DNA from: an uncultured Bacillota bacterium
Lineage (GTDB): Bacteria; Sysuimicrobiota; Sysuimicrobiia; Sysuimicrobiales; Segetimicrobiaceae
NCBI GenBank assembly: GCA_963804645.1
Contig: CAWDRG010000020.1
Span: 13,279 to 77,278 of the forward strand
Reading direction: 5' to 3'
DNA length: 64,000 bases
The notes under the pieces were generated by a model. It saw nothing but the letters and a program-made list of their open reading frames with translations, was not told the DNA's origin and searched no databases. The position numbers and the translations under genes were made by a program. Positions 3,999-19,241 of the stretch are shown here, one piece after another (the stretch's first letter is position 1; each line of letters begins with the position of its first letter).

Positions 3999-4196
3999 AT
4001 GGATCGGTTGCGGAAGGCAGTGTACGGCACGCTCGCAGTGTTGACGGCAGGCGCGGTCATGGCGATGGCGTCGGGGATCGCGATGGCGCAGGATACTGGC
4101 TCGTATGGCAACGGCAGCACCACCGCGACCGGCGGTGCGGATCTGAATCCCGCGTACCAGGTGGGGAACGCGCAGGGTGACGGCAGCGGCAAGTAG
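3999..4196 (+). CDS. Small secreted protein (65 aa)
   Basis: GGAGGAGG RBS; signal peptide ending AMA-QD; Gly/Asn/Thr-rich 35-aa mature part. Confidence 0.75.
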   Translation: MDRLRKAVYGTLAVLTAGAVMAMASGIAMAQDTGSYGNGSTTATGGADLNPAYQVGNAQGDGSGK

Positions 4197-4480
4197 TGTG
4201 GTCGGACGGCCGCGGTGCCGACCGGGCCGGCCGCGAGTCTGAACGGAGTGCAGCCGGGCGAGGCTGGTCACCTCGCCCGGCCGTGCTGTGCCCGCGCATA
4301 TCGCGCGTCGCCCCCCGCGCCTGCGGCGCGCCGATCCACGCCGGCTTGGGTCGCCGGCACGCACGCCACGCGGCAATGCAGGACCTCCGCGGCACAACAC
4401 GGAACCGGCTACGTGCCCCGCCGTCGCGACGACGCGATGATGACGCCGCGTCGGGGACGCCGAGAGCGGAGGTCGTCTCC

Positions 4481-5665
4481 GTGCGGATCACACGGCTCGA
4501 CGCGATTCCCGTGGCAGTTCCCGATCCGCCCCTGCGCAACTCGTGGGGGGTCCACGCGCCCTCGTTCCTGCGCACGATCCTGCGCCTGCACACGGATGAC
4601 GGCCTCGTGGGGCTGAGCGAGACGTACGGTCCGGACGTCGTGACGCCGACGCAGATCGAGCGGGTGCGTCAGGTGGTGGTCGGAGGGCGTCCCGAGGACA
4701 CGCAGCGGTTTGCGTACCGCCTTCGATGGCCCGAGATCGCCGGCGCGATCGAGGTCGCCTGTCTCGATCTGCTCGGCCGCGCCGCGGGACGGCGCGTGTG
4801 CGACCTGCTCGGGGGTCCGGTCCGGGACCGCGTCTCCTACGGCGCGTATCTGTTTTTCAAGTTCGCCGCGGAGGATGCGTGGGGCGAGGTGGGATCGCCG
4901 GACCAGATGGTGGCCCTGGCCGAACGCTTCGTCGAGCGGTTCGGGTTTACCACGCTGAAGGTCAAGGGCGGGGTGCTGCCGCCCTTGCAGGAAGTGGAGA
5001 CCATGGTCCTGCTCCGGCGCCGGTTCGGCGTGGGATACCCGCTGCGCCTTGACCCGAATGCCGTGTGGTCGGTGGAGACGAGCCTGCGGGTCGCGTACGA
5101 GCTCGAGCGGGCCGGCGTATGGCTGGAGTTCTTGGAGGACCCCACGAGCGGCATCGCGGGCATGGCGCGGGTGCGGGAGCGCATCACCCTGCCGCTGGCG
5201 ACCAACATGTGCGTGACGAACTGGGACGAGATCGCGCCGGCCGTCGAAGCTGGGGCCGTCGACGTAGTGCTGGCGGACCACCACGGCTGGGGCGGACTGC
5301 GGGCGTGCCAAGAACTTGGACGACTCTGCGCGACGTTTCGCTGGGGCGTCGGCATGCACTCCAACAGCCATCTCGGCATTTCCATGGCGGCGATGACGCA
5401 TCTCGCGAGCGTCGTGCCCACGCTGATCGCGGCGTCGGACACGCATTACCCATGGCTCGCTGACGACGTGATCACGCGCCCGTTCGTCTTCAAAGACGGC
5501 ACCCTTGCGCTTCCCGAGGGACCGGGACTGGGCGTGGACCTCGATGAGGAGCGCGTGGCGCAATACCACGAGGCATACGAGCGGGGCGCCGTACGCCAGC
5601 GTGACGATACCGCCGAGCTCGTGAAGCGCGACCCCGGGTGGCTGCCAATCAAACCCCGCTGGTAA
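4481..5665 (+). CDS. Glucarate-dehydratase-like enolase superfamily enzyme
   Basis: GGAGGT RBS + GTG; YLFFK, KVKGG, LRLDPN, EDP, ATNM, DHHGWGG, MHSNSHLGIS and DTHYPW motifs. Confidence 0.9.
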   Translation: MRITRLDAIPVAVPDPPLRNSWGVHAPSFLRTILRLHTDDGLVGLSETYGPDVVTPTQIERVRQVVVGGRPEDTQRFAYRLRWPEIAGAIEVACLDLLGRAAGRRVCDLLGGPVRDRVSYGAYLFFKFAAEDAWGEVGSPDQMVALAERFVERFGFTTLKVKGGVLPPLQEVETMVLLRRRFGVGYPLRLDPNAVWSVETSLRVAYELERAGVWLEFLEDPTSGIAGMARVRERITLPLATNMCVTNWDEIAPAVEAGAVDVVLADHHGWGGLRACQELGRLCATFRWGVGMHSNSHLGISMAAMTHLASVVPTLIAASDTHYPWLADDVITRPFVFKDGTLALPEGPGLGVDLDEERVAQYHEAYERGAVRQRDDTAELVKRDPGWLPIKPRW

Positions 5666-5837
5666 ATTGGCCGACGCGCCAGTGAGACTCCCGCAGCACC
5701 GGGCGGGGCTCGTGCATCCGGTGCGGTGGGTGCCGCATCGATATCATGATCGGATCGAATGGACGAAGGGTCGCGCACGGTCCACTACTAACGCGCAGGC
5801 GCTGACGGAACGAGAGCCTGCCGAAGGAGGAGTTGCG

Positions 5838-7766
5838 ATGGGTATGCGGATCGACCGCCGTGGGTTTCTCCGGCTGTCCGCCCTCGCTACTGCCGGAGCC
5901 GTCTCGACGATCTACTTCCCGACCAACGGGGCGAAGCGCGCCCTGGCCGCGACCGCGTCGAAGTACCAGGAAGCGCCGATGCTGGCGGACCTGGTGAAGC
6001 AGGGGAAGCTCCCGCCGGTGGACCAGCGGCTACCCGCCTCAGAGGATGTCCTGGTCGTCCGCCCCATCGATGAGGTGGGAGAGTACGGCGGCGTGTGGCG
6101 GCTCGCGTGGAAGGGGCCCGCAGATTTTCACGCCTACGGACGCGAGAACTACGAGGCGGTGGTGCGCTGGCCGCGCAATCCGAAGGATCCGATCCAGCCG
6201 GGGCTCGCGAAGCGGTGGCAGTTCAGCGACGGCGGGAAGACGATTACGCTCTATTTCCGCAAGGGGCTGAAATGGTCGGACGGGCAGCCCTGGACCGTCG
6301 ACGACATCATCTTCTGGTGGGAAGACATCGAAACCAACAAGGAGCTGAACGCGGCGCCCCACACGGAGTGGGTCGTGAACGACCAGCCGATGACGCTGGA
6401 GAAGATCGACGACCTCACCATCAGCCTCAAGTTTGCCGCGCCGAACGGGATGGTGCTGTCGATGCTGGCGTTCCACGGAAACCAGTGGCCGCTCAACTTC
6501 GAGCGATTCGGCTTCTTCGTCCCGTCGCACTATCTCAAGCAGTACCATCCGAAGTACAACAAGACCATCACTGACTACAAGCTGTTCAACCAGATGGCCG
6601 ACGACCTCAACCCGGACCGGCCGTCGATGGCCCCGTGGCCGGTGTCGACGTACCGCCCGGGCGACGCCAAGCTCATCGCGTCGCGCAATCCCTACTACTG
6701 GAAGGTCGACCCCAAGGGGCAGCAGCTGCCCTACATCGATCGCCTCGAGCTGACGCTGGTCGAGAACAACGAGGCGGTGGCGAGCCAGGCGCTGACCTGT
6801 CAGATCGACATGCAGTACCGCGGCATGGATCTGAATAAGTTTCCGCTGTTCGTGTCGAAGGGCCAGGACTGCGCGTACCGCGTCGTCAAATGGCTCTCGG
6901 CGTCCGGCAGCCAGCTCCTCTTCTGGCCGAACCAGAGTTACGACGGGGACGATGTGCTTCGGAAGATCTTCCAGGACCGAAACTTCCGCATCGGGCTCTC
7001 GCTGGCGATCGACCGCAACAAGATCAATACCGTCGCGTACCTGGGGCAGGGACAGATCAACGCCCCCACGGTGGTGCCGGACTCGGCGTACTACCCAAAC
7101 AACGTGGCGAAGCTGTACCAAAACTACGACGTGCGCATGGCCGGGCAGTCGCTCGACAAGGCGGGGCTGAAGATGGGGCCGGACGGGAAGGTTCGCCTCA
7201 GGCCCGACGGAAAGCCGCTCGAGGTCGTGATCGAGACCCAGCTGCAGGGGGCGGACCTGGACGCGATCGAGCTGGTTGCGGCCGATTGGACCGCGCTGGG
7301 CGTCAAGACCGACATCAAGACGATGTCGCGAGACCTGTACTGGCCGCGGGCGACCGGCAATCAGGTCCAGATCGCGACGTGGAACGGCGACCGCGGGCTC
7401 GAGCCGTTCGTGGATCCGATCTACGTGTTCCCGTTCGACGAGCGGTCGTGGATGGCTCCGGCGTTCGGGGTGTACTACAAGACCAACGGGGCGAAGGGTG
7501 AGAAGCCGGTCGGGTCGCTGGCCCAGGCCCAAGCGCTGTACGACCAGTTCCGGGGCACGGTCGACCGGGGCAAGCAGGTCGCGATCGGCAAACAGCTAAT
7601 TCAGATGGCGGTTGAGGAAGTGACGACGATCTGCACCGTCGGGCTGGTTCCCGTGCCGCTGATCGTCGACAATCGGATGAAGAACGTGCCGGACCACTAC
7701 GTGCAGGACTGGATCATCTTTTCGCCGGGCAATCTGGATCCATGCCACTTCTTCTATAAGGCATAG
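5838..7766 (+). CDS. ABC transporter substrate-binding protein, family 5 (sugar/oligosaccharide-type), Tat signal
   Basis: DRRGFLR twin-arginine motif; EAPMLADLVKQGKLPPVDQRLP, GLKWSDGQPWTVDD and RNPYYWKVDPKGQQLPYID. Confidence 0.92.
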   Translation: MGMRIDRRGFLRLSALATAGAVSTIYFPTNGAKRALAATASKYQEAPMLADLVKQGKLPPVDQRLPASEDVLVVRPIDEVGEYGGVWRLAWKGPADFHAYGRENYEAVVRWPRNPKDPIQPGLAKRWQFSDGGKTITLYFRKGLKWSDGQPWTVDDIIFWWEDIETNKELNAAPHTEWVVNDQPMTLEKIDDLTISLKFAAPNGMVLSMLAFHGNQWPLNFERFGFFVPSHYLKQYHPKYNKTITDYKLFNQMADDLNPDRPSMAPWPVSTYRPGDAKLIASRNPYYWKVDPKGQQLPYIDRLELTLVENNEAVASQALTCQIDMQYRGMDLNKFPLFVSKGQDCAYRVVKWLSASGSQLLFWPNQSYDGDDVLRKIFQDRNFRIGLSLAIDRNKINTVAYLGQGQINAPTVVPDSAYYPNNVAKLYQNYDVRMAGQSLDKAGLKMGPDGKVRLRPDGKPLEVVIETQLQGADLDAIELVAADWTALGVKTDIKTMSRDLYWPRATGNQVQIATWNGDRGLEPFVDPIYVFPFDERSWMAPAFGVYYKTNGAKGEKPVGSLAQAQALYDQFRGTVDRGKQVAIGKQLIQMAVEEVTTICTVGLVPVPLIVDNRMKNVPDHYVQDWIIFSPGNLDPCHFFYKA

Positions 7767-7853
7767 CCGAGAGATCGGCGGAGCGGTAGGCGGGCGGCGC
7801 CGGGACGCGCCGCCTGCGCATCGCGCCCCGCGCTGGAGCAGGGAGGAACTGGG

Positions 7854-8837
7854 ATGACCAGGTATGTCGTCCGGCGTCTCCTGGCCATGATCCCGACACT
7901 CTTTCTGGTGTCGATTGCCTGCTTCATTATCATTCAGTTGCCGCCTGGAGATTTCGTGACCTCGCTGGCGGCGCAGACGGCGGGCTCAGGATCGAGCGCA
8001 GATCAGGCGACGCTGGACAACCTGCGCCATCAGTACGGCCTCGATCAGCCCAAATACATCCGCTACATCAAGTGGGTCTCCGGATTCGCGCACGGCGACT
8101 TCGGCTACTCGTTCGAATGGAAGCGGCCGGTCGCCCAGTTGATCGGGGACCGGCTCGGGCTCACGCTGCTGCTCTCCACGTTGTCCCTCGCGCTGACGTG
8201 GCTGATTGCGGTGCCCGTCGGCGTCTACTCGGCGACGCACCGGTACTCGGGCCTGGACCACGCGCTGACGGCCTTCGCGTTCCTCGGGCTGTCCATCCCC
8301 GATTTCCTGCTGGGATTGATGTACCTGGCGATCGGCATCTTCGTCTTCCAAATGTCGGCCACCGGCCTCGTGTCGCCGCGGTTCGCGGACGCGCCCTGGT
8401 CGTTCGCCAAGCTCGCCGATGTGGCGAACCATCTCCTGTGGCCGTCGATCATCCTCGGCCTGGGCGGCATGACGCAGCTGATTCGCATTCTCCGCGGCAG
8501 CATGCTTGAGGTGACCAACCAGCAGTTCGTCACCACCGCCCGCGCCAAAGGCCTGGACGAGCGGGTGGTGATTCACAAACACGCGCTGAAGGTAGCAATC
8601 AATCCGCTGGTGAGCGTGATGGGCCTGCAGTTGCCGCAGTTGATCTCGGGCGCCACGATCCTTGGGATCGTGCTGTCGATGCCGACGACCGGCCCCATGT
8701 TCGTGCGTGCGCTGATCAGTCAGGATATGTATCTCGCCGGGACGTTTCTGCTGTTTCTGGCGCTGATGCTGATGATGGGCAATCTGCTGGCCGATGTGGC
8801 CCTGGCGTGGATCGATCCCCGGATTCGTTACCAATGA
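7854..8837 (+). CDS. ABC permease, OppB/DppB-like
   Basis: IIQLPPGDF; EAA-loop region FVTTARAKGL; ends IDPRIRY. Confidence 0.93.
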   Translation: MTRYVVRRLLAMIPTLFLVSIACFIIIQLPPGDFVTSLAAQTAGSGSSADQATLDNLRHQYGLDQPKYIRYIKWVSGFAHGDFGYSFEWKRPVAQLIGDRLGLTLLLSTLSLALTWLIAVPVGVYSATHRYSGLDHALTAFAFLGLSIPDFLLGLMYLAIGIFVFQMSATGLVSPRFADAPWSFAKLADVANHLLWPSIILGLGGMTQLIRILRGSMLEVTNQQFVTTARAKGLDERVVIHKHALKVAINPLVSVMGLQLPQLISGATILGIVLSMPTTGPMFVRALISQDMYLAGTFLLFLALMLMMGNLLADVALAWIDPRIRYQ

Positions 8838-9985
8838 GCGTCGTCGGGAAACCCACTGCCTCGACGGTCCCCGCCGGGATGCCGGCGGCGGTCGCGTCGG
8901 CGTCCGATGCCGGCCGGGGGGTCGTTCGCACGCGGGGGCAGCTCATGTGGCGGCGGTTTCTCCGCAACCGCGCCGCCGTCGTCGGCGGCATCGTCGTGCT
9001 CGCGTTCTATGCCACCGCGCTGTTCGCCAACTTCGTGGCTCCCTACGGCCTCGATCAGCGGTTCATCGAGTACCTGTACGCGCCGCCGCAGGCCCTGCAC
9101 GTCGATGTCCGGACCGGGCTCTACGTCTATGGCCTGCAGCGCCACGTGAATCCCGATACGCTCCTGACGACATACACCCTCGACCGCAGCCGGAAGCTGC
9201 CGGTGCGCTTCTTCGTGCGTGGCGAGCCATACGTGCTGGCCGGCGTGCTGCCGTCCGATGTGCACCTGTTCGGGGTCGACGCCGCGGACATGGGCGTGTT
9301 TCCGCTCGGCACCGACCGGCAGGGACGCGACATGCTGTCGCGCATCCTCATCGGCAGCCAGATGTCCTTGACGATTGGCCTGGTGGGCGTGTTCCTCAGC
9401 CTGATCATCGGGTCGGTGCTCGGGGTGTTCTCCGGGTACTACGGCGGCTGGATCGACGAGGTCGTGCAGCGCCTGATCGAGGTCATCCGGTCATTCCCCG
9501 CGATCCCGTTGTGGATGGCGCTCAGCGCCGCGCTGCCGCAGTCGTGGTCCCCCGTCAGCGTGTACTTCGCGATTACGGTGATCTTGTCGGTGATCGGATG
9601 GACGTGGCTGGCCCGGCAGCTGCGGGGGAAGGTCCTGGCCTTGCGCGAGGAAGAATTCGTCACCGCGGCGCGCGTCATGGGAGCGAGCGACGGCCGCATC
9701 ATTTTTAGGCATCTGCTGCCGCAGGTGTTCGGACACATCGTCGTCATCGCCACACTCGCGCTGCCGGGCATGATCCTCGCCGAGACGGCCCTCTCGTTTC
9801 TGAACCTCGGGCTGCGGCCGCCGCTGACGAGTTGGGGCGTCCTCCTGCAGGAGGCGCAGAATCTGGAGAGCCTGCGGAACTTTCCCTGGCTGCTGATGCC
9901 CGCGGCGTTCATTTCCGCGGCCGTGCTGGCGTTCAACTTCTTCGGGGACGGCCTCCGAGACGCGGCCGACCCGCGCGCGGCGTAG
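8834..9985 (+). CDS. ABC permease, OppC/DppC-like
   Basis: ATGA overlap with upstream stop; LGTDRQGRDMLSR, EEFVTAAR and GDGLRDAADP. Confidence 0.93.
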   Translation: MSVVGKPTASTVPAGMPAAVASASDAGRGVVRTRGQLMWRRFLRNRAAVVGGIVVLAFYATALFANFVAPYGLDQRFIEYLYAPPQALHVDVRTGLYVYGLQRHVNPDTLLTTYTLDRSRKLPVRFFVRGEPYVLAGVLPSDVHLFGVDAADMGVFPLGTDRQGRDMLSRILIGSQMSLTIGLVGVFLSLIIGSVLGVFSGYYGGWIDEVVQRLIEVIRSFPAIPLWMALSAALPQSWSPVSVYFAITVILSVIGWTWLARQLRGKVLALREEEFVTAARVMGASDGRIIFRHLLPQVFGHIVVIATLALPGMILAETALSFLNLGLRPPLTSWGVLLQEAQNLESLRNFPWLLMPAAFISAAVLAFNFFGDGLRDAADPRAA

Positions 9986-10053
9986 CGCACGACCCGCGGG
10001 CGCGGCCCGCGCGGAGACCATTCCGGGCCGCGCCGGCCCACGGGGGGGAGCGC

Positions 10054-11178
10054 ATGCGCATCAAGGACGTCACGGTCCGGGGGTTCCGCCACCCATCCCA
10101 CACGGTGCGGGACGCCGAGGGGCACCGACACCCGGGCCCGGTGCACGAGGTCGTGCAGACGCTGACGACGATCACGACCGACGACGGCGTCGCGGGGCAC
10201 TGCTTCGGGGGCAGCGAGGCCCTCTGCCGCGTGGTCGCGCCGATGCTGGCGGGGCAGGATCCGCTCGACCGGGAGCGGCTGTGGCAGACGCTGCGCCGCT
10301 ACCAGCGCCTCGTCGGGGAGGTCCTGACCGACCGCAACCTCGCGGTGATCGACCTTGCGCTCTGGGATCTCATCGGCCAGGCCCTCCACCAGCCGGTGTT
10401 CAAGCTGCTCGGCGCCTACCGGGATTCGGTGCCGGCCTACGGCAGCACGATGTGCGGCGACGATCTGCCCGGCGGCTTGAGTTCGCCGGAGGAGTACGCC
10501 GACTTTGCGCAGGCGCTCCTCGCGGTGGGGTATCCGGCGATCAAGCTGCACACGTGGATGCCGCCGCTCGGCCCGGACCCCCGGCGTGATGTCGCCGCAT
10601 GCCGCGCCGTGCGCGAGCGGGTCGGCCCGGATGTGCGCCTGATGCTGGACTGCTACCACGACTACAGCCGCACCGACGCGCTCTACATCGGCCGCGCGCT
10701 CGAGGAGCTTGGCTTCTACTGGTTCGAGGAGCCGATGAACGAGCAGAGCATGAGCTCGTACGTCTGGCTCACCCGCGAGCTGCGCATTCCGGTCGTCGGG
10801 CCGGAGACGCTGGACGGCAAGATGCACGCGCGCGCGGAATGGCTCGTCGCCGGCGCCTCCGACATCAGCCGGTACTCCTCGCTGCTCGGCGGCATTACCC
10901 CGGCGATGAAGGCGGTCGCCCTGTGCGAATCGTTCGGCGTGCCGCTCGAGATGCACGGGGCGAACCCCGGCAACCTGCAGGTGCTCGGCGCGATGGGCAT
11001 TCCGGGGGAATACTACGAGCGCGGCCTGCTCCATCCGTTCGTCAACTACGAGGACGCCACCCCGTGGCTGCACGAGCTCTTTGATCCTGTTGATCGCCAC
11101 GGGAACGTGCGCATCTCCCAGAAGCCCGGCCTTGGGTTGGACGTGAACTGGGACTACATCGAACGCCAGAAGGTGTGA
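10054..11178 (+). CDS. Mandelate racemase / muconate lactonising enzyme family protein
   Basis: IDLALWDL, AYGST, IKLH, LMLD, WFEEP, GPE and LEMH enolase-superfamily motifs. Confidence 0.9.
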   Translation: MRIKDVTVRGFRHPSHTVRDAEGHRHPGPVHEVVQTLTTITTDDGVAGHCFGGSEALCRVVAPMLAGQDPLDRERLWQTLRRYQRLVGEVLTDRNLAVIDLALWDLIGQALHQPVFKLLGAYRDSVPAYGSTMCGDDLPGGLSSPEEYADFAQALLAVGYPAIKLHTWMPPLGPDPRRDVAACRAVRERVGPDVRLMLDCYHDYSRTDALYIGRALEELGFYWFEEPMNEQSMSSYVWLTRELRIPVVGPETLDGKMHARAEWLVAGASDISRYSSLLGGITPAMKAVALCESFGVPLEMHGANPGNLQVLGAMGIPGEYYERGLLHPFVNYEDATPWLHELFDPVDRHGNVRISQKPGLGLDVNWDYIERQKV

Positions 11179-11235
11179 GGCCGGTCCGGTGCACCGCGAT
11201 GCGCCAAGGTCCGGGCCGCTGTCGTCGGACGGAGG

Positions 11236-13047
11236 CTACTTGAACGTTGCGCCGGCCTGCAGCAGCAGATGTTCTGCGATCGGGCCGAGGGCGAGCGCGG
11301 GCAAGAAGCTCAGCGTGCCGACGAGGATGAGTACCGCGACAAGCCAGAGGACGAACTGCCACGCATCGGTCGGGAGGGTGCCTGGACCGGCGGGCCACTG
11401 TTTCTTCCCGACCATTGATCCCGCGATTGCCAGCGCTGGGATCGCCACCCAGAAGCGTCCGGCCAGCATGACCATGGCGCCGAACACGTTGTAGAACGGT
11501 GTGTTGCCGGTCAGCCCCGCGAATGCGCTGCCGTTGTTGTTCGACATCGACGTGAAGGCGTAGAGGATCTCGCTGAACCCGTGCGGCCCGGGGTTCGACG
11601 GGCCCGCCCGCCCCGCCGCGGTGAGCACCGCGATTGCCGTTGCGGTGAGGGCGACCGCCGGCATGATGATCACGACCAGGGTTGCCATCTTCATCTCGAA
11701 CGCTTCGATCTTCTTGCCCAGGTACTCGGGGCTGCGTCCGATCATGAGCCCAGCCGCGAACGCCGCCACGAGGACGTACACGAGCATTCCGTAGAGCCCC
11801 GACCCGACGCCGCCGTAGATGACCTCGCCGGTGTGCATCAGGAACAGCGGGACGAACCCTCCGGCCGGCGTGTAGGAATCGTAATCCGAGTTGGCCGAGC
11901 CGTTCGACGCTGCGGTGGTGAGCGCCGTCCACAACGCCGAGGCGGCGATCCCAAACCGCGCCTCCTTCCCCTCCATGTTGCCGCCCGGCTGCGCCGTCGT
12001 CGCCCGCTGGTCAACGCCCGCCGGGGTGAGCAGCGGATTGCCGGCCTGCTCCACGCTGACGGCCCCCACGAGCAGCGGCACGAAGATCACCGTCATCGCG
12101 GCGAGCAGCGCCCAGGCCTGTTTCGTGTTCCCGACCATCCGGCCAAACAGATAGCATGACCCGATCGGGATCAGGGCCATTGCCACCGTCTCGAAGAAGT
12201 TGGACAGCGGGGTCGGATTCTCGAACGGGTGCGCGGCATTCACGTTGAAGAAGGCACCGCCGTTCGTGAGCTGCCTGATCGCGACCTGCGAGGCCACGGG
12301 GCCCAGGGCAATCTGCTGCCCGGTGACTGTGACCGTCTGGGTCTTTGGCCGGCCCTTACTGTCGAGCACCGGTTTCCCGTTCGCGCCGGTCACCGGCCGC
12401 GTGTACGAGGTCGCTTCCATCAGCGTCGCGGTCCGGTACGGCGACAGCGTCTGGACGACGCCCTGGGACACGAGGAACAGGGCGAAGACGGCGGCGAGCG
12501 GCAGGAAGATGTACAGCGTGCCGCGCACGAGATCCACCCAGAAGTTGCCGATGGTCCGGCCCGACGTGCGCGCCACGCCGCGGAACAGCGCGACCATGAT
12601 CGCCAGCCCGGCCCCGGAGACGAAGGCTTTCGGCACGAACCCCGCCATCTGCGTCAGGTAGCTCATTGCCGTCTCGCCCGCGAAGTTCTGCCACTCGGTG
12701 GCGCTCACGTACGACGCCGCGGTGTTGAAGGCGAGGATGGGATCGATCGACGCAACGTGCTGCGGGTTGAATGGCAGCGCAGCCTGGAGCCGCAGCATCG
12801 CGTACAGCAGCAGCATGCCGGCGACGGTGAAGCACAAGAGTGCGCCGGCGTACGTCTGCCACTCCATCTCCTGCTCCGGCCGTACGCCGGCGCAGCGGTA
12901 CAGGAGCCGTTCCACCGGTCGGAGCAGCGGGTCGAGCCACGTGCGCTCGCCCTGGTAGACCCGCGCCATGTAGGCTCCGACCGGTTTGGCCGCGAGCAGC
13001 AGCACGACCATGACGGCGGCAATCTGCAGCCAGCCGAGAGTGGTCAC
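11236..13047 (-). CDS. kdpA: Second, orphan KdpA paralogue with altered selectivity-filter motifs
   Basis: Full-length alignment by eye to the kdpA at 14667: [53 protein letters not shown]. Confidence 0.93.
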   Translation of the reverse strand: MTTLGWLQIAAVMVVLLLAAKPVGAYMARVYQGERTWLDPLLRPVERLLYRCAGVRPEQEMEWQTYAGALLCFTVAGMLLLYAMLRLQAALPFNPQHVASIDPILAFNTAASYVSATEWQNFAGETAMSYLTQMAGFVPKAFVSGAGLAIMVALFRGVARTSGRTIGNFWVDLVRGTLYIFLPLAAVFALFLVSQGVVQTLSPYRTATLMEATSYTRPVTGANGKPVLDSKGRPKTQTVTVTGQQIALGPVASQVAIRQLTNGGAFFNVNAAHPFENPTPLSNFFETVAMALIPIGSCYLFGRMVGNTKQAWALLAAMTVIFVPLLVGAVSVEQAGNPLLTPAGVDQRATTAQPGGNMEGKEARFGIAASALWTALTTAASNGSANSDYDSYTPAGGFVPLFLMHTGEVIYGGVGSGLYGMLVYVLVAAFAAGLMIGRSPEYLGKKIEAFEMKMATLVVIIMPAVALTATAIAVLTAAGRAGPSNPGPHGFSEILYAFTSMSNNNGSAFAGLTGNTPFYNVFGAMVMLAGRFWVAIPALAIAGSMVGKKQWPAGPGTLPTDAWQFVLWLVAVLILVGTLSFLPALALGPIAEHLLLQAGATFK

Positions 13048-13125
13048 GCGACCCTGTTCAAACCCGAGGAATGTGCGGGGGACGTGTGAACCGCGTCCTC
13101 TGCGAAGTGGACGGAGCGGCTGCGG

Positions 13126-13278
13126 CTAGCGCCGTCGGGATCGTGGCGAGTACAGTCTTGCGGATGTGCTGGCCGTCCGGAGGATGGGGATGGGGCGGGG
13201 CTTCGACCGCCGGTCAAGGATCCGCAGGCAGGAACCCAAGGATAACAAGACGGCGCCGACAAGCAGTGCGTCCGACAC
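13126..13278 (-). CDS. Small membrane peptide (50 aa) upstream of the orphan kdpA
   Basis: RBS GAGAGGTGA then GTG: MSDALLVGAVLLSLGSCLRILDRRSKP...; resembles the 14490 peptide. Below the ORF-track cut-off. Confidence 0.45.
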   Translation of the reverse strand: MSDALLVGAVLLSLGSCLRILDRRSKPRPIPILRTASTSARLYSPRSRRR

Positions 13279-13365
13279 GTTCGTCACCTCTCAGCGAAGC
13301 GCGGGCGTCAAACTCTGCTCCGAGTCACCCGCGCGCGGACATCGTGGTCCGCAGGCTTCCGCGCC

Positions 13366-13431
13366 ATCCTACCACGGACCGGCGTGGCGGCGGCGTTAAG
13401 ATATCGTGTCGGGGCGCTACGATGTTGTGAC
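13366..13431 (-). promoter_or_regulatory. Putative KdpE-type promoter for the orphan kdpA
   Basis: Minus strand GTCAC, GTAGC, TTAAC and a degenerate 4th box at 11/21/11 spacing, then TG-G-TAGGAT (13371-13366). Confidence 0.55.
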
Positions 13432-13460
13432 GCCCCCATTGGAGGGGACGCGAAGCGAAA

Positions 13461-13525
13461 TTAATCGAGGTTTAACGGCGGAGGCCTCCACCGTAACGCC
13501 GCCGTAGCGCGGGTGGTGGTATCGT
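13461..13525 (+). promoter_or_regulatory. Putative KdpE-type promoter for the USP gene
   Basis: TTAAT 13461, TTAAC 13472, GTAAC 13493, GTAGC 13504, then TG-G-TATCGT at 13520. Confidence 0.65.
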
Positions 13526-13568
13526 GCATGCGACGGCGCACAGACGCCCCCGAGGGGTGGACACTTGT

Positions 13569-14303
13569 ATGTCACGTCGCATGACGAGCACGCTGGATCG
13601 CGTCCGGCCGGATGCAGCCTTTGACCACCGCCCCGGAGCGCCCCTGGGCAGCGGGGATGCCCCGGAGATCGTGTTCGGCGTGGAGGGCGATTCGAACGAC
13701 GGGCGCGCCATCCGTGCGCTGCCGAGCCTGTGCTGGGGCATGGAGCACGCAAGTGTCCGGCTGCGCATCGTCCACGTGGTGACCGTGCCGATGACGTTGC
13801 CGCTCGACGCGGAACTCCCCGAGGCCGACGCAGCGGCGGCGGGCATCCTCGGCCGCGCGAACTTTGCGGCCGCGTCGGTCGGTATCCCGGCGCGGACCGG
13901 GACGGTGAGGGCCCGGAGTGTCGCCGGTGGGCTGATCGAGGCCGCACGGCGATCCTCGGCGAGAGGGATCGTGGTGCCGCTGCACCGCCGCGAGGGTGTC
14001 GGGGCGCACGTGATCTTGAGCCGCACCGCGCGGACGTTGCTCACATCCGCCTCGTGCCCCGTCTATCTCCTGCACCTTCCACACGGCGACCTCGATGGCG
14101 GGCCCGTCGATGCGGTTGGGACGTCCCGGCGCCGGCACGGGGTCCGCAACTGGCTGGCATCTCTCTGGGAGAAGTTCCTCGTCGCATGCGTGATCGCGGA
14201 GACGAGCGCGTTCGAGCTCTGCGGGACGTGCGTGTCCGCCCGCCCGTATCTTGAGGAGACGATGCGGATCCTTGAACTCGGCCGCATCACCCCGAGGGCC
14301 TAG
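13569..14303 (+). CDS. Universal stress protein (USP) domain protein
   Basis: RIVHVVTVPMTLPLDAELPE, RARSVAGGLIEAAR and LSRTARTLLTSASCPVYLL follow the USP fold pattern. Confidence 0.8.
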   Translation: MSRRMTSTLDRVRPDAAFDHRPGAPLGSGDAPEIVFGVEGDSNDGRAIRALPSLCWGMEHASVRLRIVHVVTVPMTLPLDAELPEADAAAAGILGRANFAAASVGIPARTGTVRARSVAGGLIEAARRSSARGIVVPLHRREGVGAHVILSRTARTLLTSASCPVYLLHLPHGDLDGGPVDAVGTSRRRHGVRNWLASLWEKFLVACVIAETSAFELCGTCVSARPYLEETMRILELGRITPRA

Positions 14304-14347
14304 CCTCCTGCTCGACACGTGCGGCCTTCCGAACAGTGCCCCCGAGA

Positions 14348-14413
14348 TTAACAAAACATTAATGCCCTTCGCTCCGGCCGTAATGGCTCTGTAATGCCGT
14401 TCGATGATACCGT
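14348..14413 (+). promoter_or_regulatory. Putative KdpE-binding promoter of kdpFABC
   Basis: TTAAC 14348, TTAAT 14359, GTAAT 14380, GTAAT 14391, then TG-A-TACCGT at 14408; an AT-rich island in GC-rich DNA. Confidence 0.7.
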
Positions 14414-14489
14414 GGCGGAGTAATTGACGCCGCGGTGCGGGTTGTGCGCGCGGCGGGCGGGGCACGGGGACAGGGGAGGGTGGTCATCG

Positions 14490-14582
14490 GTGGCGGACGT
14501 CGAGCTCATTGTGCTTACGTTGGTGTTCTTTTTCTCGTGCGTGCTGATGGTCGAGGGCCTCGACCGGCTGATGGGACGGTGA
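14490..14582 (+). CDS. Small hydrophobic kdp-associated peptide (30 aa) upstream of kdpF
   Basis: GGGGAGGG RBS; MADVELIVLTLVFFFSCVLMVEGLDRLMGR, a single TM followed by DRL. Confidence 0.7.
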   Translation: MADVELIVLTLVFFFSCVLMVEGLDRLMGR

Positions 14583-14586
14583 CGAC

Positions 14587-14670
14587 ATGGTCGTGATCGC
14601 AGGCGTGCTCTCGCTCGCGCTGCTGGGATATTTGATCTGCGCACTGTTGAAGCCAGAGTGGTTTGTATGA
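14587..14670 (+). CDS. kdpF: K+-transporting ATPase subunit F
   Basis: [27 protein letters not shown] fits the KdpF pattern YLxxALxxPExF; ATGA overlap with the kdpA start. Confidence 0.9.
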   Translation: MVVIAGVLSLALLGYLICALLKPEWFV

Positions 14671-16484
14671 CGACCAACGGGATCGTCCGCATCGTCCTGC
14701 TTCTCGTCGTCACCTTTCTGCTCGTCAAGCCCGTCGGCACCTACATGGCGAAGGTCTACGAAGGGGAACGGACCTTCCTGGACCGGTTCCTGAAGCCGCT
14801 CGAACGGTGGCTGTACCGGATCTGCGCCATCGATGCGCAGGCCGACATGCCGTGGCAGACATACACGATCGCGCTGCTCGTCTTTACGATCGTCGGCATG
14901 CTGCTCTTGTACGCGCTGCAGCGGCTGCAGGGCGTGCTGCCGTTCAACCCCCAGGCGATGGGCCCGGTCGATCCGAGCCTTGCGTTCAACACCGCCACGT
15001 CGTTCGCGACGAACACGAACTGGCAGAACTACGGCGGAGAGACTACGCTCAGCTACTTCAGCCAGATGGCGGGGCTGACAGTGAAGAACTTCACCTCGGC
15101 CGCCGTCGGCATGGCGGTCCTGGTGGCCCTGATCCGCGGCCTGACGCGCCGCTCGGTCAAGTCGATCGGCAACTTCTGGGTCGATACGGTGCGCGGGGTC
15201 CTGTACGTACTCATGCCGCTTTCGATCGTCCTCGCGCTGCTGCTGGCGTGGCAGGGGCTCCCGGCGACGCTGTCGGCGTACACGACGGCGACCCTCATGG
15301 AGCCGACCTCGTACCAGCAGCCGGTCACCGATGCGAACGGGAAGCCGGTACTCGACGCCAAGGGTCAGCCGGAGACCAAGACGGTCAAGGTGACCGAGCA
15401 GCAGATCGCCATCGGTCCCGTGGCGTCGCAAATTGCGATCAAGGAGCTCGGCACGAACGGTGGCGGATTTTTCAATACCAACTCAGCGCATCCGTTCGAG
15501 AACCCAACGCCGCTCTCGAACTTCCTCGAAATGCTTGCGATCTTGCTTATCCCAATGGCACTCGTCTACACGTACGGCCGGATGGTGAAGGACACCCGCC
15601 AGGGCTGGGCGTTGCTCGCGGCGATGACGATCTGCTTCCTTCCGGCCATCGGGGTCGCCGTGGGGTTCGAGCAGGCCGGCAACCCGCTGTTCCATTCGCT
15701 CGGCGTCGATCAGGTCGCGAGCGCGGTGCAGCCTGGCGGGAACATGGAAGGCAAGGAGGTCCGGTTCGGCCCCGTCGACTCGGCACTCTGGGCCGTGTCG
15801 ACGACCTCGACCTCGAACGGCTCGGTGAACTCGATGCACGACTCCTACACCCCGATCGCCGGCATGGTGCCGATGATCATGATGCACCTCGGTGAGATCA
15901 TCTACGGCGGCGTGGGCACCGGAATGTACGACATGGTGGCGCTCGTCATTGTCGCCGCGTTCGTCGCGGGATTGATGGTGGGCCGCACGCCGGAGTACCT
16001 CGGCAAGAAGATCGAATCGTTCGAGATGAAGATGGCCACGATCGTCGTGCTGGTGATGCCGGCGGTTGTGCTGGTCGGGACCGCGCTCGGGGTCGCGACT
16101 GCGGCCGGCAGGGCCGGGGTGTCGAACCCGGGCCCGCACGGGTTCAGCGAGATCCTCTACGCGTTTACGTCCATGGGCAACAACAACGGCAGCGCGTTCG
16201 CGGGCCTGAACGGCAACACCCCGTTTTACAACGACGTCGGGGCGGCCGTGATGTGGCTCGGACGGTTCTGGGAGATTGTTCCGGTGCTCGCGATCGCCGG
16301 ATCCCTGGCCGCCAAGAAGCTCGTGCCGCCGGGCGCGGGGACGCTGCCCACGCACACGCCGCTGTTCGTCGCGTGGCTGGTGGCGGTGATTATCGTGCTG
16401 GGGGCGTTGAGCTTCCTGCCCGTGCTGGCGCTTGGGCCGATCGTCGAGCACCTGCTGCTGGTCGCCGGCACCACCTTCAAGTGA
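14667..16484 (+). CDS. kdpA: K+-transporting ATPase subunit A
   Basis: Canonical filter motifs [18 protein letters not shown] and NNNGS. Confidence 0.97.
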
Positions 16485-16497
16485 GGAGACGGAGAGC

Positions 16498-18588
16498 ATG
16501 AGCGTAGAGACCACGCACCGCGCGGCCCCCCAGCAGGCCATGATTTGGCGAGTGGCGATCCGGGACGCGTTCCTGCGGCTGGATCCGCGCCAGCAGTTGC
16601 GCAACCCGGTGATGTTCGTCGTGGAGATCGGCAGCGTGTTCACGACGATCCTGTTCTTCCAGGCGCTCGGGGGGAAGGGCGAGGCGCCCGCGCCGTTTAT
16701 CGGCAGCGTGGCGATCTGGCTCTGGTTCACCGTCGTGTTCGCAAACTTTGCGGAGGCGCTGGCCGAGGGACGCGGCAAGGCACAGGCGGAGGCGCTGCGG
16801 CGCGCGCGCCGGACCATCTCGGCGCGGCGGCTCGCGCGGCCGGAACGCACCGCGCCGTCGGAAACCGTTCCGTCTACCGCGCTGCGGAAGGGCGACGTCG
16901 TCCTGGTCCAGGTCGGCGAGGCGATCCCCGCCGACGGCGAGGTGATCGAAGGCGTCGCGTCCGTCGACGAGAGCGCCGTGACCGGCGAGAGCGCCCCGGT
17001 GATCCGCGAATCGGGCGGCGACCGGAGCGCCGTGACCGGCAGCACCGTGGTGCTGTCCGACTGGCTCCTGATCCGCATCACCGCCAATCCCGGCGAGGGC
17101 TTCATCGACCGCATGATCGCGCTGATCGAGGGCGCGCGGCGGCAGAAGACGCCGAACGAGATCGCGCTGACAATCCTGCTCGTCGGCTTCACGATCCTGT
17201 TCCTGCTGGTCTGCGCGACACTGTACCCGTACTCGGTGTTCAGCGTCAGCGTCGCGGGCCACGGCACGCCGGTGACGATCACGGTGCTGATCGCGCTCCT
17301 AGTGTGCCTGATCCCGACGACGATCGGCGGCCTCCTGAGCGCGATCGGCATCGCGGGGATGGACCGCATGATCAAGCGCAACGTGATCGCCCTGTCGGGC
17401 CGTGCCGTGGAGGCTGCGGGCGACGTGGACGTGCTCTTGCTCGACAAGACCGGCACGATCACGCTCGGCAACCGGCAGGCGGTCGAGTTCATCCCGGTGG
17501 ACGGAGTGGACGCACGGCAACTCGCGGAAGCGGCGCAGCTCGCGTCCCTGGCCGACGAGACGCCGGAAGGCCGCAGCATCGTGGTGCTCGCAAAGGACCA
17601 GTATGCGATGCGGGGCCGCACCGTCGGCGGCACGGAAGAGGCGCCGCACGGCGCCACGTTCGTGCCGTTCAGCGCCCAGACGCGGATGAGCGGCGTGGAT
17701 TTCGATGGGACGGTCATCCGCAAGGGTGCGGCGACGGCGATCATCGAGTTCGTGGAGGGGCGCGGCGGCCGGATTCCCCCAGAGCTCAACGCCACGGTTG
17801 ATCGGATCTCCAGGACGGGCGGCACGCCGCTGGTCGTGTCCAGGAACGATACCGTGCTTGGCGTCATCTACTTGAAGGACATCGTGAAGGGCGGCATCAA
17901 GGAGCGATTCCTGCAGCTGCGGAAAATGGGCATTCGCACGGTCATGATCACCGGCGACAATCCGTTGACGGCCGCCGCGATCGCCGCCGAGTCCGGGGTG
18001 GACGATTTTCTGGCGCAGGCGAAGCCCGAGGACAAACTCAAGCTGATCCGCGATTACCAGTCCGGCGGCCGGCTCGTGGCGATGACCGGCGACGGCACCA
18101 ACGATGCGCCGGCGCTCGCGCAGGCCGACGTGGCGGTGGCCATGAACACCGGGACGCAGCCGGCGCGGGAAGCCGCGAATATGATCGACCTCGACAGCAA
18201 CCCGACGAAGCTGATCGAGGTCGTCGAGATCGGCAAGCAGCTGCTGATGACGCGGGGCGCGCTGACGACGTTCAGCATCGCGAACGACGTCGCCAAGTAC
18301 TTCGCGATCATCCCGGCGGCCTTTGCGTCCACGTACCCCGTGCTGACCGCGCTCAACTTCATGCGCCTCAGCACCCCGGACAACGCGATTTCGGCCGCCG
18401 TGATCTTCAATGCGCTGATCATCATTGCGCTCATTCCGCTGTCGCTGCGGGGCGTCAAGTACCGCCCGGCCAGCGCCGGGGAGATCCTGCGCGACAACCT
18501 GCTGCTCTACGGCGTCGGCGGCGTCATCGCGCCGTTCATCGGGATCAAGTTGATCGACGTGATTCTCGTCGCGCTGGGGCTCCATTAG
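16498..18588 (+). CDS. kdpB: K+-transporting ATPase subunit B (P-type ATPase)
   Basis: [32 protein letters not shown] and [10 protein letters not shown]. Confidence 0.98.
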
Positions 18589-18668
18589 GATGCCCGCGCG
18601 GCCAATGCATCACACGGCGGCCCGCAGTCGAGCGGTGGGCGCCGACCACCGATAAGGAGCGAGGAATC

Positions 18669-19241
18669 ATGCGCGCACAACTGCTTCCAGCGGTCATGCT
18701 GACCCTGATGCTGGCGATCATTACGGGGCTGTGCTATCCGCTCGTAATCACCGGGATCGCGCAGGTCCTGTTTCCGCACCAGGCGAACGGCAGCCTGATC
18801 GTGGATCATGGCAAGGTCGTGGGCTCCGAGCTGATCGGCCAGCCGTTCGCGGACCCCGGCCACTTTTGGAGCCGGCCGTCGGCCACGTCGCCGCAGGCCT
18901 ACAACGCCGCGTCGTCCAGCGGCTCGAACCTGGGCCCGACGAACCAGGCGCTGATCGACCAGGTGAAGGCGAACGTCGCGGCGCTCCGCCAGGCGGATCC
19001 GGGGAACACCGCGCCGGTGCCGGTGGACCTCGTCACGAACTCCGCGAGCGGGCTCGATCCCGACATCAGCGTCGCGGCGGCGCTGTACCAGGTGCCGCGG
19101 GTCGCGCGGGTGCGCAAGCTGCCGGTCGAGACCGTCCGCACCCTCGTGGCGCAGTACACGGAGGGCCGCCAGCTGGGCGTGCTCGGGGAGCCGCGGGTGA
19201 ACGTGCTCGAATTGAACCGGGCGCTCGACCAGGTGAAGTGA
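18669..19241 (+). CDS. kdpC: K+-transporting ATPase subunit C
   Basis: [39 protein letters not shown] and [11 protein letters not shown]. Confidence 0.97.

What the first reader, a model, noticed from the sequence alone, without database searches (positions are those of the whole stretch)
11236..13047. Orphan KdpA paralogue with a re-engineered selectivity filter
Seen: an intact 603-aa kdpA points away from the kdpFABC operon and has no kdpB or kdpC of its own. It shares the operon copy's long loop ([17 protein letters not shown]) and the C-terminal TFK, suggesting duplication within the lineage. Differences are conspicuous at pore loops: loop 1 SFATNTNWQ becomes SYVSATEWQ (~12688-12715); loop 2 [11 protein letters not shown] becomes RQL-TNGGAFF (in-frame one-codon deletion, ~12247-12276); the loop 3 context [11 protein letters not shown] becomes SNGSANSDYDS; loop 4 NNNGS is unchanged. 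The GE and GRF motifs are retained. Established: NTN, TNG, S(C/N)G and NNG form the KdpA K+ filter, and substitutions there change affinity or selectivity. Inference: a swappable subunit that pairs with the same KdpB/C to give a pump with different affinity or ion (e.g. NH4+, Na+, Rb+), or an inhibitory subunit. I know of no described system like this.
Basis: partly seen in the sequence, partly recalled or inferred. Interest (0 to 1): 0.8.

Follow-up and report, generated by a model that had tools for sequence, protein, structure and literature searches.

The report
Conserved orphan KdpA with altered filter
A peat bacterium with two complete ATP-driven potassium pumps keeps a third, stand-alone copy of the pump's ion-selecting subunit whose ion filter is consistently changed, which suggests a swappable part that re-tunes the pump, though this is untested.

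Summary
Window 11236-13047(-) is an intact 603-aa KdpA (Pfam 725 bits, NCBIfam kdpA 675 bits). It is 65% identical to the kdpFABC copy 1.6 kb away and has no kdpF, kdpB or kdpC of its own. The genome has 3 KdpA but 2 KdpB and 2 KdpC.

It is not a decaying duplicate:
- Orthologues (72-98% identical) occur in 4 of 7 genomes of one genus and in 8 metagenome contigs.
- dN/dS is 0.15-0.17, against 0.10-0.15 for operon copies.
- 10 substitutions are fixed in the clade at otherwise conserved sites. Six lie in filter loops 1-3: F109Y, N112A, N114E, loss of G229, V347A, H351Y (E. coli numbering).
- TNGGA and the Asp in loop 3 are private to this species.

New here:
- A conserved 49-54-aa membrane ORF precedes the gene in 11 of 11 loci.
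- Its upstream region carries the direct-repeat box typical of this family's kdp promoters.
- One species has a nonsense codon.

Best reading (about 0.45): an alternative A subunit that uses KdpB/C from the resident operons and changes affinity or ion preference. Pairing was not tested, because the complex predictor was unavailable.

The scan has noted other altered-filter KdpA subfamilies in other genomes; a sequence look-up found none like this one.

The parts
11236..13047 (-). kdpA2: orphan KdpA paralogue, 603 aa, GTG start
   Evidence: GC3 is 0.90, the same as kdpA1. The AF2 model matches E. coli KdpA chains at TM 0.78-0.84.
12688..12714 (-). Filter loop 1, SYVSATEWQ. Clade-fixed changes are F109Y, N112A and N114E (E. 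coli numbering).
12247..12276 (-). Filter loop 2, RQL-TNGGAFF. Loss of G229 is fixed in the clade; G234A occurs only in this species.
11881..11913 (-). Filter loop 3, AASNGSANSDY. V347A and H351Y are fixed in the clade; M350D occurs only in this species.
11527..11541 (-). Filter loop 4, NNNGS, unchanged
11446..11460 (-). GRFWV: equivalents of the vestibule Arg493 and tunnel Val496 are retained. The Glu370 equivalent (GEV) is at 11821-11829.
   Evidence: The roles of these residues come from passages of PMC12629597.
13126..13278 (-). Conserved small ORF (50 aa here) with one N-terminal hydrophobic helix, 78 nt upstream of kdpA2
   Evidence: Present in 11 of 11 A2 loci (6 distinct sequences), 49-54 aa, with a 65-85 nt gap to kdpA2. 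The helix part has pN 0.00-0.11 among the five closer lineages. No Pfam or NCBIfam match.
13366..13431 (-). Putative kdpA2 promoter: TGGTAGGAT (extended -10-like, 13366-13374), CTTAACGCC... (13384-13400), and a kdp-box position with one mismatch (13416-13431)
   Evidence: The alignment of six A2 upstream regions with four operon upstream regions shows these elements. The strict box is present at the aligned place in 4 of 7 A2 loci. Function is inferred only.
13461..13508 (+). Two strict kdp-type direct-repeat boxes facing the usp ORF and the kdpF side
14348..14395 (+). Two strict kdp-type boxes upstream of the operon's leader ORF and kdpF
14490..19241 (+). Resident operon that could supply partners: 30-aa leader ORF 14490-14582, kdpF 14587-14670, kdpA1 14658-16484, kdpB (likely 16498-18588), kdpC 18669-19241

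Best explanation
kdpA2 encodes a functional alternative channel-like (A) subunit of the Kdp P-type pump. It is expressed from its own promoter together with a small membrane peptide, probably under the same response-regulator control as the kdp operons. It lacks kdpB and kdpC, so it would assemble with the KdpB and KdpC (and perhaps KdpF) made by one of the two resident kdpFABC operons. Ions would enter through its modified filter and pass through the usual vestibule and tunnel into KdpB.

The modified filter has an alanine at 112, a glutamate at 114 (the position that is glycine in the other three pore loops), a one-residue-shorter loop 2, and changed loop 3 flanks. The expected result is a pump with a different apparent affinity or a different preference among K+-sized cations (K+, Rb+, NH4+), possibly suited to acidic, K+-poor peat.

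Shown here: the gene is intact, conserved and under purifying selection; the filter changes are fixed in the clade; the vestibule residues are kept; the locus lies beside kdp genes.

Inferred: expression, co-regulation, assembly with KdpB/C, and the change in ion handling.
For: - **Intact full-length KdpA**, with the same GC3 (0.90) as the operon copy.
- **Orthologues.** Found in 4 of 41 related genomes, all in one genus. Seven of the 121 proteins examined (the query plus the 120 best hits listed) carry ATEWQ and the G229 deletion, at 72-100% identity; the next hits are at 67%. Eight further metagenome loci carry it.
- **Selection.** dN/dS is 0.148-0.168 in 6 of 6 orthologue pairs, against 0.105-0.148 for 6 operon pairs. 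This species' own branch has 57 synonymous and 30 nonsynonymous codon changes, similar to kdpA1 with 34 and 21.
- **Filter enrichment.** Of 289 columns conserved at 90% or more in 123 operon KdpA, the clade fixes another residue at only 10. Six of those fall in the four filter windows (39 columns); Fisher p = 5.9e-4.
- **Core residues kept.** The equivalents of Glu370, Arg493, Gly232, Gly345, Gly468, Trp115 and Gln116 are invariant.
- **Subunit count.** The genome has 3 KdpA but only 2 KdpB and 2 KdpC.
- **Neighbourhood.** A2 lies next to kdp genes in every locus with enough flank: divergent from an operon-type kdpA in G000, G002, L051/L053, L052, L057 and L078, and between a divergent kdpABC-regulator and kdpE-kdpD in G006 and L073.
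- **Promoter box.** A direct-repeat box has 24 strict copies in 5.3 Mb (31 expected by base composition). Six of them lie in kdp upstream regions. It occurs upstream of 8 of 14 operon loci, and at the aligned place upstream of A2 in 4 of 7 loci, with one mismatch in this genome.
- **Literature (passages read).** E. coli KdpA alone gives no K+ uptake and its pore stays sealed below the intramembrane loop (PMC6255902). G232D, an acidic residue at the pore-loop glycine of loop 2, lowers affinity to the mM range yet gives coupled Rb+ and NH4+ transport, and KdpB is relatively promiscuous (PMC12629597).
- **Natural precedent.** A KdpA with Asp at position 114 sits in a complete kdpABC operon of a relative, so an acidic residue there is compatible with a pump context.
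Against: - No assembly or expression evidence was obtained. The complex predictor was unavailable.
- In one species the gene carries a TAG at codon 496, just before filter loop 4. The same sequence is seen in two metagenome records, so the gene is dispensable at least there.
- The clade is narrow: 4 of 94 genomes of the phylum, all in one genus.
- In this genome the A2 promoter box has a mismatch in its first half-site.
- No kdpF is present, and no kdpF remnant was detected upstream.
- The AF2 model is poor in all filter loops (pLDDT below 50), so it says nothing about filter geometry.
- The effects of N112A, N114E and the loop-2 deletion have not been measured. A search for KdpA together with N114 found 0 papers.
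Confidence: 0.45

Rival explanations
1. KdpB-independent role: KdpA2, perhaps with the small upstream peptide, works alone as a cation channel or uniporter like its relatives TrkH and KtrB.
For: It has no kdpB or kdpC of its own. It has its own conserved small membrane ORF in place of kdpF. KdpA shares its fold with TrkH and KtrB (TM about 0.4-0.5).
Against: E. coli KdpA alone does not support K+ uptake, and its pore is sealed below the intramembrane loop (PMC6255902 passages). KdpA2 keeps the equivalents of Glu370, Arg493 and Val496 and the GRxPEYLGKK segment almost unchanged. The clade-diagnostic changes lie at the outer filter, not at a cytoplasmic exit.
Confidence: 0.1
2. Sensor role: KdpA2 is a non-transporting K+ (or NH4+) receptor that reports external ion levels to KdpD/KdpE or to the operon-linked regulator.
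For: In G006 and L073 the gene lies directly upstream of kdpE-kdpD on the same strand. In a relative without A2, kdpD occupies the divergent position beside kdpFABC. Only the ion-binding outer filter is remodelled.
Against: In this genome kdpD and the ORF before it lie on another contig. No precedent was found in the passages read. The full transport core is conserved at 279 of 289 family-conserved columns, more than a sensor would seem to need.
Confidence: 0.1
3. Inhibitory or decoy subunit: KdpA2 competes with KdpA1/A3 for KdpB/C and gives a slow or inactive complex that limits K+ uptake.
For: Subunit numbers are unequal: 3 A against 2 B and 2 C. In E. coli an acidic residue at a pore-loop glycine position (G232D) lowers affinity and Vmax (PMC12629597).
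Against: A kdp-type activator box would switch it on together with the pump, which makes little sense for a brake. Purifying selection across the whole length fits a working transporter better.
Confidence: 0.1
4. Dispensable relic: a left-over from a lost third operon that is still constrained only weakly or until recently, with no distinct function today.
For: There is a nonsense codon in one species. The gene is absent from 3 of 7 genomes of the genus. dN/dS is slightly higher than for operon copies. The promoter box has a mismatch in this genome.
Against: dN/dS is 0.15-0.17 over dS up to 0.74. There are no frameshifts or stops in 3 of 4 species genomes, nor in 6 of the 8 metagenome loci; the other two loci are identical to the broken G002 copy. 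The filter changes are identical in all members down to 72% identity. The upstream ORF and promoter elements are conserved although dS between A1 and A2 is about 0.9.
Confidence: 0.15

Closest known systems
E. coli KdpA, the K+-selecting subunit of KdpFABC (PDB 5MRW, 6HRA, 7NNP)
   Same: Full-length sequence match (E = 7e-153). The model matches at TM 0.78-0.84. The glycines of loops 2-4, Trp115, Gln116, and the Glu370 and Arg493 equivalents are kept.
   Different: There is no adjacent kdpF, kdpB or kdpC. It carries N112A, N114E, F109Y, loss of G229, V347A and H351Y. It also has the 30-residue periplasmic insertion common to this bacterial family.
E. coli KdpA filter mutants G232D and Q116R/E (PMC12629597; Buurman 1995 and Schrader 2000 as cited there)
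   Same: These are changes of charge or shape at the filter of an otherwise normal KdpA. G232D puts an acidic residue at a pore-loop glycine position, as N114E does in loop 1 (my alignment of the four loops, based on the S3 ligand list).
   Different: They are laboratory point mutants inside a normal operon. KdpA2 is a natural, selected combination of six changes in a separate gene, and its effect has not been measured.
The operon KdpA copies of the same genome (kdpA1 in the window, kdpA3 on contig C17)
   Same: 65% identity; the same insertion and C-terminus; the same codon usage.
   Different: Each operon copy has a leader ORF, kdpF, kdpB and kdpC, and a canonical NTNWQ / GTNGGG / [11 protein letters not shown] filter.
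Other 'second KdpA' subfamilies noted earlier by this scan (e1-4384001, e1-6967861, e1-5281279, e1-7044687), and the divergent kdpABC of relative G006
   Same: They are extra KdpA genes with altered filter motifs beside a normal pump. The G006 copy has Asp at position 114.
   Different: As summarised, those are large, widely spread or operon-embedded subfamilies. A sequence look-up found no look-alike of KdpA2 among them. KdpA2 is a narrow clade only 35% diverged from the canonical copy, and it has no partner genes.
Ser/Gly switch in the first pore loop of HKT/Ktr transporters (recalled; PMC6255902 only says that filter mutations in KtrAB and HKT shift selectivity towards Na+)
   Same: A single residue at the first pore-loop 'glycine' position sets the ion preference in the same superfamily.
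   Different: This is a different protein family and a different residue. For Kdp only Rb+/NH4+ broadening has been reported.

Membership tests
KdpA (PF03814 / TIGR00680) | Full-length match to the family profile above the curated cut-off | tested here: met
   PF03814 scores 725.3 bits on profile positions 2-548 of 548. TIGR00680 (equivalog) scores 675.1 bits against a cut-off of 387.7.
KdpA (PF03814 / TIGR00680) | KdpA fold (four pore-loop repeats) | tested here: met
   The AF2 model (pTM 0.69, mean pLDDT 59.6) matches 7nnp_A, 6hra_A and 5mrw_A at TM 0.78-0.84, and next TrkH/KtrB at 0.4-0.5. The loops themselves have low confidence.
KdpA (PF03814 / TIGR00680) | Canonical filter motifs NTNWQ / TNGGG / S(C/N)G / NNG | tested here: not met
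   Loops 2-4 keep their glycine (G263, G383 and G506 are invariant). Loop 1 reads ATEWQ instead of NTNWQ, and loop 2 has lost the residue before TNGG. In the comparison set, 108 of the 121 proteins examined have TNTNWQ.
KdpA (PF03814 / TIGR00680) | Vestibule/tunnel residues Glu370 and Arg493 | tested here: met
   E408 and R531 are invariant in the 28-sequence alignment. Their roles come from PMC12629597.
KdpFABC operon component | Encoded with kdpB and kdpC (usually also kdpF) in one operon | tested here: not met
   The neighbours are a small unknown ORF upstream and a convergent enolase-superfamily gene downstream. The genome has 3 KdpA, 2 KdpB and 2 KdpC.
KdpFABC operon component | Physical assembly with KdpB/KdpC and ATP-driven K+ uptake | not testable with these tools
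Kdp regulon (KdpD/KdpE-type control) | Promoter with the operator shared by the kdp operons | tested here: inconclusive
   The strict direct-repeat box is found upstream of 8 of 14 operon loci and of 4 of 7 A2 loci. In this genome and in G006 the aligned position has one mismatch. Binding by a regulator is inferred, not shown.

The most novel reading that the evidence does not exclude
KdpA2 is a natural plug-in selectivity module. By exchanging only the channel-like subunit, the cell converts an existing KdpB/C engine into a pump for a different substrate or regime, for example ATP-driven NH4+ uptake or K+ capture at the low pH of peat. The extra carboxylate at position 114 would keep the filter mouth negative at low pH. 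This would be the first case of subunit swapping that sets ion specificity in a P-type ATPase.
Probability: 0.15. Interest if true: 0.85.

Novelty: new variant of a known kind. Interest (0 to 1): 0.55.

Why it matters
KdpFABC is the only known pump in which a channel-type filter feeds a P-type ATPase. Recent work (PMC12629597) shows that the filter alone sets the specificity and that KdpB accepts other K+-sized cations.

A naturally selected, partner-less KdpA with a specific set of filter changes would have three uses:
- It would test whether cells exploit this modularity.
- It would give a ready-made set of six substitutions to transplant into E. coli KdpA.
- It could explain how bacteria of K+-poor, acidic, NH4+-rich peat tune cation uptake.

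If KdpA2 instead works without KdpB, or acts as a sensor, that would also be new for this family.

Tried and rejected
- **Mistyped pattern scan.** Its 18 hits contain no KdpA, and the pattern misses even the window's own gene. That scan is uninformative, so whether ATEWQ-type KdpA exist in other phyla among the 185,579 species genomes remains open. The corrected pattern (positive control 4 of 4) was then run on the phylum (94 genomes) and on the metagenome contigs.
No pairing of KdpA2 with the small ORF, KdpC or KdpB was tested.
- **AF2 model.** All filter loops are below pLDDT 50, so it was not used for any statement on filter geometry.
- **Expression.** No RNA holder is listed for this stretch. 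No reads were laid.
- **Promoter and terminator scan.** The simple sigma-70 and terminator scan of 10900-14700 gave 0 promoter-like sites and 1 terminator-like site, which lies on the + strand inside kdpA2 and is within chance.
- **Is the upstream small ORF a copy of the operon's 30-aa leader ORF?** Pairwise score z = 3.3-3.8 (17 and 7 of 2000 shuffles reach it). However, an HMM of 12 leader peptides finds only the two true leaders among 89,964 ORF segments of the genome, and not this ORF. The homology is left open.
- **Is it KdpF, or is a kdpF remnant present?** No. KdpF against the small ORF gives z = -0.35, and no frame of the 240 nt upstream resembles KdpF.
- **Decaying pseudogene:** rejected.
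- **Recent duplication inside the genus:** disfavoured. The constrained tree is 30.7 log-likelihood units worse (AU p = 0.04), but the group was named after seeing the tree.
- **Literature.** One search was too broad to be useful. One search (kdpA2, kdpA1, 'second kdpA', 'additional kdpA', 'kdpA homolog', 'kdpA paralog') gave 6 papers, 5 of them listed, and all listed ones were incidental. One search (KdpA + N114) gave 0. One search timed out. Subscription papers (Buurman 1995, Dorus 2001, Huang 2017) could not be searched.
Full report
**1. What is in the window**

The ORF at 11236-13047(-) is 603 codons long, starts with GTG and has no internal stop. It matches the KdpA profile end to end: PF03814 at 725.3 bits on profile positions 2-548 of 548, and the NCBIfam equivalog TIGR00680 at 675.1 bits against a cut-off of 387.7.

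A complete kdp operon points the other way, 1.6 kb off:
- a 30-aa leader ORF at 14490-14582;
- kdpF at 14587-14670 (TIGR02115 33.6 bits, cut-off 26.85);
- kdpA1 at 14658-16484 (810.6 bits);
- kdpB, in ORF 16432-18588, with a likely start at 16498;
- kdpC at 18669-19241;
- an OmpR-type response regulator at 19279-19983.

The orphan (KdpA2 below) and KdpA1 are 392/605 (65%) identical with two single-residue gaps.

Downstream of kdpA2 lies a convergent enolase-superfamily gene (9832-11178). No kdpF, kdpB or kdpC belongs to kdpA2.

In the whole genome (96.8% complete) there are 3 KdpA, 2 KdpB above the family cut-off and 2 KdpC. The second full operon lies on another contig (C17). The single kdpD lies on a third contig, preceded by a 230-aa ORF that reads like its response regulator; I did not scan that ORF.

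**2. The gene is not private and not decaying**

Among 41 related genomes, KdpA2-type genes (81-88% identical) occur in three other species, all in the same genus. All other KdpA hits are 63-66% identical.

In the large protein collection, 7 of the 121 proteins examined (the query plus the 120 best hits listed) form the same group at 72-100% identity. Every one of them has ATEWQ in loop 1 and lacks the glycine before TNGG in loop 2. The next hits drop to 67% and are canonical.

A DNA pattern for N-T-A-x5-A-T-(D/E)-W-Q hits 4 of 94 genomes of the phylum, all in this genus (4 of its 7 genomes). It also hits 37 metagenome stretches. Eight of these are KdpA2 loci and 29 show no KdpA similarity.

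Nei-Gojobori dN/dS between KdpA2 orthologues is 0.148-0.168 (6 pairs, dS 0.25-0.74). For the operon kdpA1 of the same genus it is 0.105-0.148 (6 pairs), and for the third type 0.076. Codon changes private to this species' copy are 57 synonymous and 30 nonsynonymous, much like kdpA1 with 34 and 21. GC3 is 0.90 in both genes.

Against this, one species (G002) has TAG in place of Tyr at codon 496, just ahead of filter loop 4. The identical sequence is present in two metagenome records. The gene is therefore dispensable in at least one lineage, and 3 of the 7 genomes of the genus lack it.

**3. What changed**

I compared six KdpA2-clade sequences with 123 operon-type KdpA of the same bacterial family. 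Of 289 columns that are at least 90% conserved in the operon type, the clade has fixed a different residue at only 10.

In E. coli numbering (offsets taken from the alignment) these are F109Y, N112A, N114E, N137A, loss of G229, I259M, V347A, H351Y, V398I and V428A. Six of the ten lie inside the four 11-residue filter windows, which hold 39 of the 289 columns. The odds ratio is 11 and the one-sided Fisher p is 5.9e-4. I chose the windows after seeing the data.

The main K+ site S3 of E. coli KdpA is formed by carbonyls of N112, T113, T230, S343, C344, N466 and N467 (passage in bioRxiv 10.1101/2025.03.04.641403). On that basis residue 114 is the loop-1 counterpart of G232, G345 and G468. KdpA2 thus carries a glutamate at a pore-loop 'glycine' position.

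For comparison, E. coli G232D lowers K+ affinity to the mM range and allows coupled Rb+ and NH4+ transport. Q116E at the filter mouth behaves like wild type. The negative surface at the mouth attracts cations, and KdpB is described as relatively promiscuous (passages of PMC12629597).

The rest of the conduction path is kept. The equivalents of Glu370, Arg493 and Val496, the three loop glycines, Trp115 and Gln116 are all present.

An acidic residue at 114 is not unique to this clade. A 38%-identical KdpA inside a complete kdpABC operon of relative G006 reads TNTDLQ.

**4. Origin**

In a 43-row maximum-likelihood tree the six KdpA2-type rows form a clade (SH-aLRT 100). That clade is sister (support 99) to all 28 operon KdpA of the family, with a stem of 0.14 against 0.067. 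The split between the two operon types of this genus is later.

Forcing KdpA2 together with the genus's operon copies costs 30.7 log-likelihood units (AU p = 0.04; the group was named after seeing the tree).

The periplasmic insertion and the TFK end are family-wide. So KdpA2 is either an older paralogue lost elsewhere or a moderately accelerated one. The data do not decide between these.

**5.

In 11 of 11 KdpA2 loci (6 distinct sequences) a small ORF of 49-54 codons precedes the gene by 65-85 nt, here at 13126-13278(-). It has a Shine-Dalgarno-like GAGGTGA and one N-terminal hydrophobic helix. In the helix part pN is 0.00-0.11 among the five closer lineages, while the tail evolves fast. It matches no Pfam or NCBIfam family.

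All 14 operon-type loci examined have a different, 30-31-aa hydrophobic leader ORF directly before kdpF. The two small ORFs look alike at their N-termini (z = 3.3-3.8). However, a profile of the leader does not recover the KdpA2-linked ORF from the genome's 89,964 ORF segments, so I leave homology open. There is no kdpF or recognisable remnant of it before kdpA2.

**6. Upstream regions**

The upstream regions of KdpA2 and of the kdpA1 operons align, although synonymous divergence between the two genes is about 0.9. They share tandem direct repeats of the form (G/T)TAA(T/C)-N6-(G/T)TA(A/G)(T/C), spaced 32 bp apart, and a TGGTAnnAT element.

The strict 16-bp box has 24 copies in the 5.3-Mb genome, with 31 expected from base composition. 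Five of them lie in the kdpA2-kdpF intergenic region and one lies upstream of the second operon. The box occurs within 900 nt upstream of 8 of 14 operon loci.

Upstream of KdpA2 it is present in the gene's orientation in 4 of 7 loci. In this genome and in G006 the aligned position has one mismatch, and L072 has too little flank. This fits control by an OmpR-family regulator shared with the kdp operons, but that is inference.

**7. Neighbourhoods**

KdpA2 is divergent from an operon-type kdpA in G000, G002, L051/L053, L052, L057 and L078. In G006 and L073 it lies on the same strand between a divergent kdpA-kdpB-kdpC(337 aa)-regulator cluster and kdpE-kdpD. Each genome with KdpA2 also has at least one KdpC.

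DNA of this stretch is held by peat metagenome runs; two runs hold about 70% of its sampled words.

**8. Reading**

The most economical explanation is an alternative A subunit that borrows KdpB/C from a resident operon and changes apparent affinity or the preference among K+-sized cations. I put this at about 0.45.

It rests on:
- purifying selection;
- filter-focused fixed changes;
- the retained vestibule and tunnel residues;
- the subunit imbalance;
- the kdp-type promoter elements;
- the published finding that E. coli KdpA alone does not take up K+ and stays sealed towards the cytoplasm (PMC6255902).

The rivals are a KdpB-independent channel (0.10), an ion sensor for KdpD/E (0.10), an inhibitory decoy (0.10) and a dispensable relic (0.15).

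Which ion is preferred cannot be said. By analogy with the mutants described in the passages I read, NH4+ or Rb+ is more plausible than Na+.

**9. Limits**

- The complex predictor was unavailable.
- The AF2 model confirms the KdpA fold (TM 0.78-0.84 to 7NNP, 6HRA and 5MRW), but all filter loops are below pLDDT 50.
- No RNA data were found.
- My one scan of all species genomes was wasted on a mistyped pattern, so the distribution outside the phylum rests on the protein search and the metagenome scan only.

**10. Novelty**

I found nothing in the searchable literature on an orphan or second kdpA of this kind (one search failed; subscription papers were not searchable).

Earlier notes of this scan describe other KdpA subfamilies with rewritten filters in other genomes. 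None resembles this sequence.

KdpA2 is therefore a new, narrow variant within a theme that seems recurrent: natural diversification of the Kdp filter subunit.

Noticed in passing
window 14490-14582 (+); also L010-L018 and L021-L025 upstream of kdpF: A 30-31-aa hydrophobic ORF lies directly before kdpF in all 14 operon-type kdp loci examined in this bacterial family. It has no Pfam or NCBIfam match. It may be an undescribed small Kdp subunit or a leader peptide.
   Followed up: partly
window 13524-14303 (+): An ORF with a universal-stress-protein domain (E = 3.4e-8) lies between kdpA2 and the operon and is preceded by two kdp-type boxes. It is full length in L057 and L052 (63% identity), but only a C-terminal remnant of about 60 aa remains in G002/L053 and L078.
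   Followed up: partly
window 13461-13508 and 14348-14395; G000:C17:154921: A direct-repeat box, (G/T)TAA(T/C)-N6-(G/T)TA(A/G)(T/C), often GTAATGGCnnnGTAA, has 24 strict copies in the genome. Six of them lie in kdp upstream regions. It is a likely operator of the kdp regulon in this family.
   Followed up: partly
L028 (G006:C33), 10869-15939 (-): A relative carries a third kind of kdp operon. Its KdpA is 38% identical to KdpA1, reads TNTDLQ in loop 1 and has no Glu at the Glu370 position. The operon also has a KdpB, a 337-aa KdpC and its own response regulator, and sits directly upstream of its KdpA2.
   Followed up: partly
L008/L029 (G002), L051, L053: codon 496 of KdpA2: TAY has become TAG (Tyr to stop) just before filter loop 4 in one species. 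The gene sequence is identical in two metagenome records and otherwise shows no decay.
   Followed up: yes
L073, KdpA2 filter loop 4: One metagenome variant of the G006-like KdpA2 reads NNHGS instead of NNNGS in loop 4.
   Followed up: no
window 14658-16484 (kdpA1), near GRFWEIVP: KdpA1 has Glu at the position of E. coli tunnel residue Val496, whereas KdpA2 and the second operon's KdpA have Val. The three KdpA of this genome therefore also differ inside the tunnel.
   Followed up: no
L031 (G000:C17:143000-160000): The second complete kdp operon lies next to a Na+/H+ exchanger gene and a DDE transposase gene.
   Followed up: no
window 4196-11178: Two enolase-superfamily (MR/MLE) genes flank a peptide-type ABC transporter (SBP_bac_5 binding protein and two permeases). 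They are unrelated to kdp.
   Followed up: no
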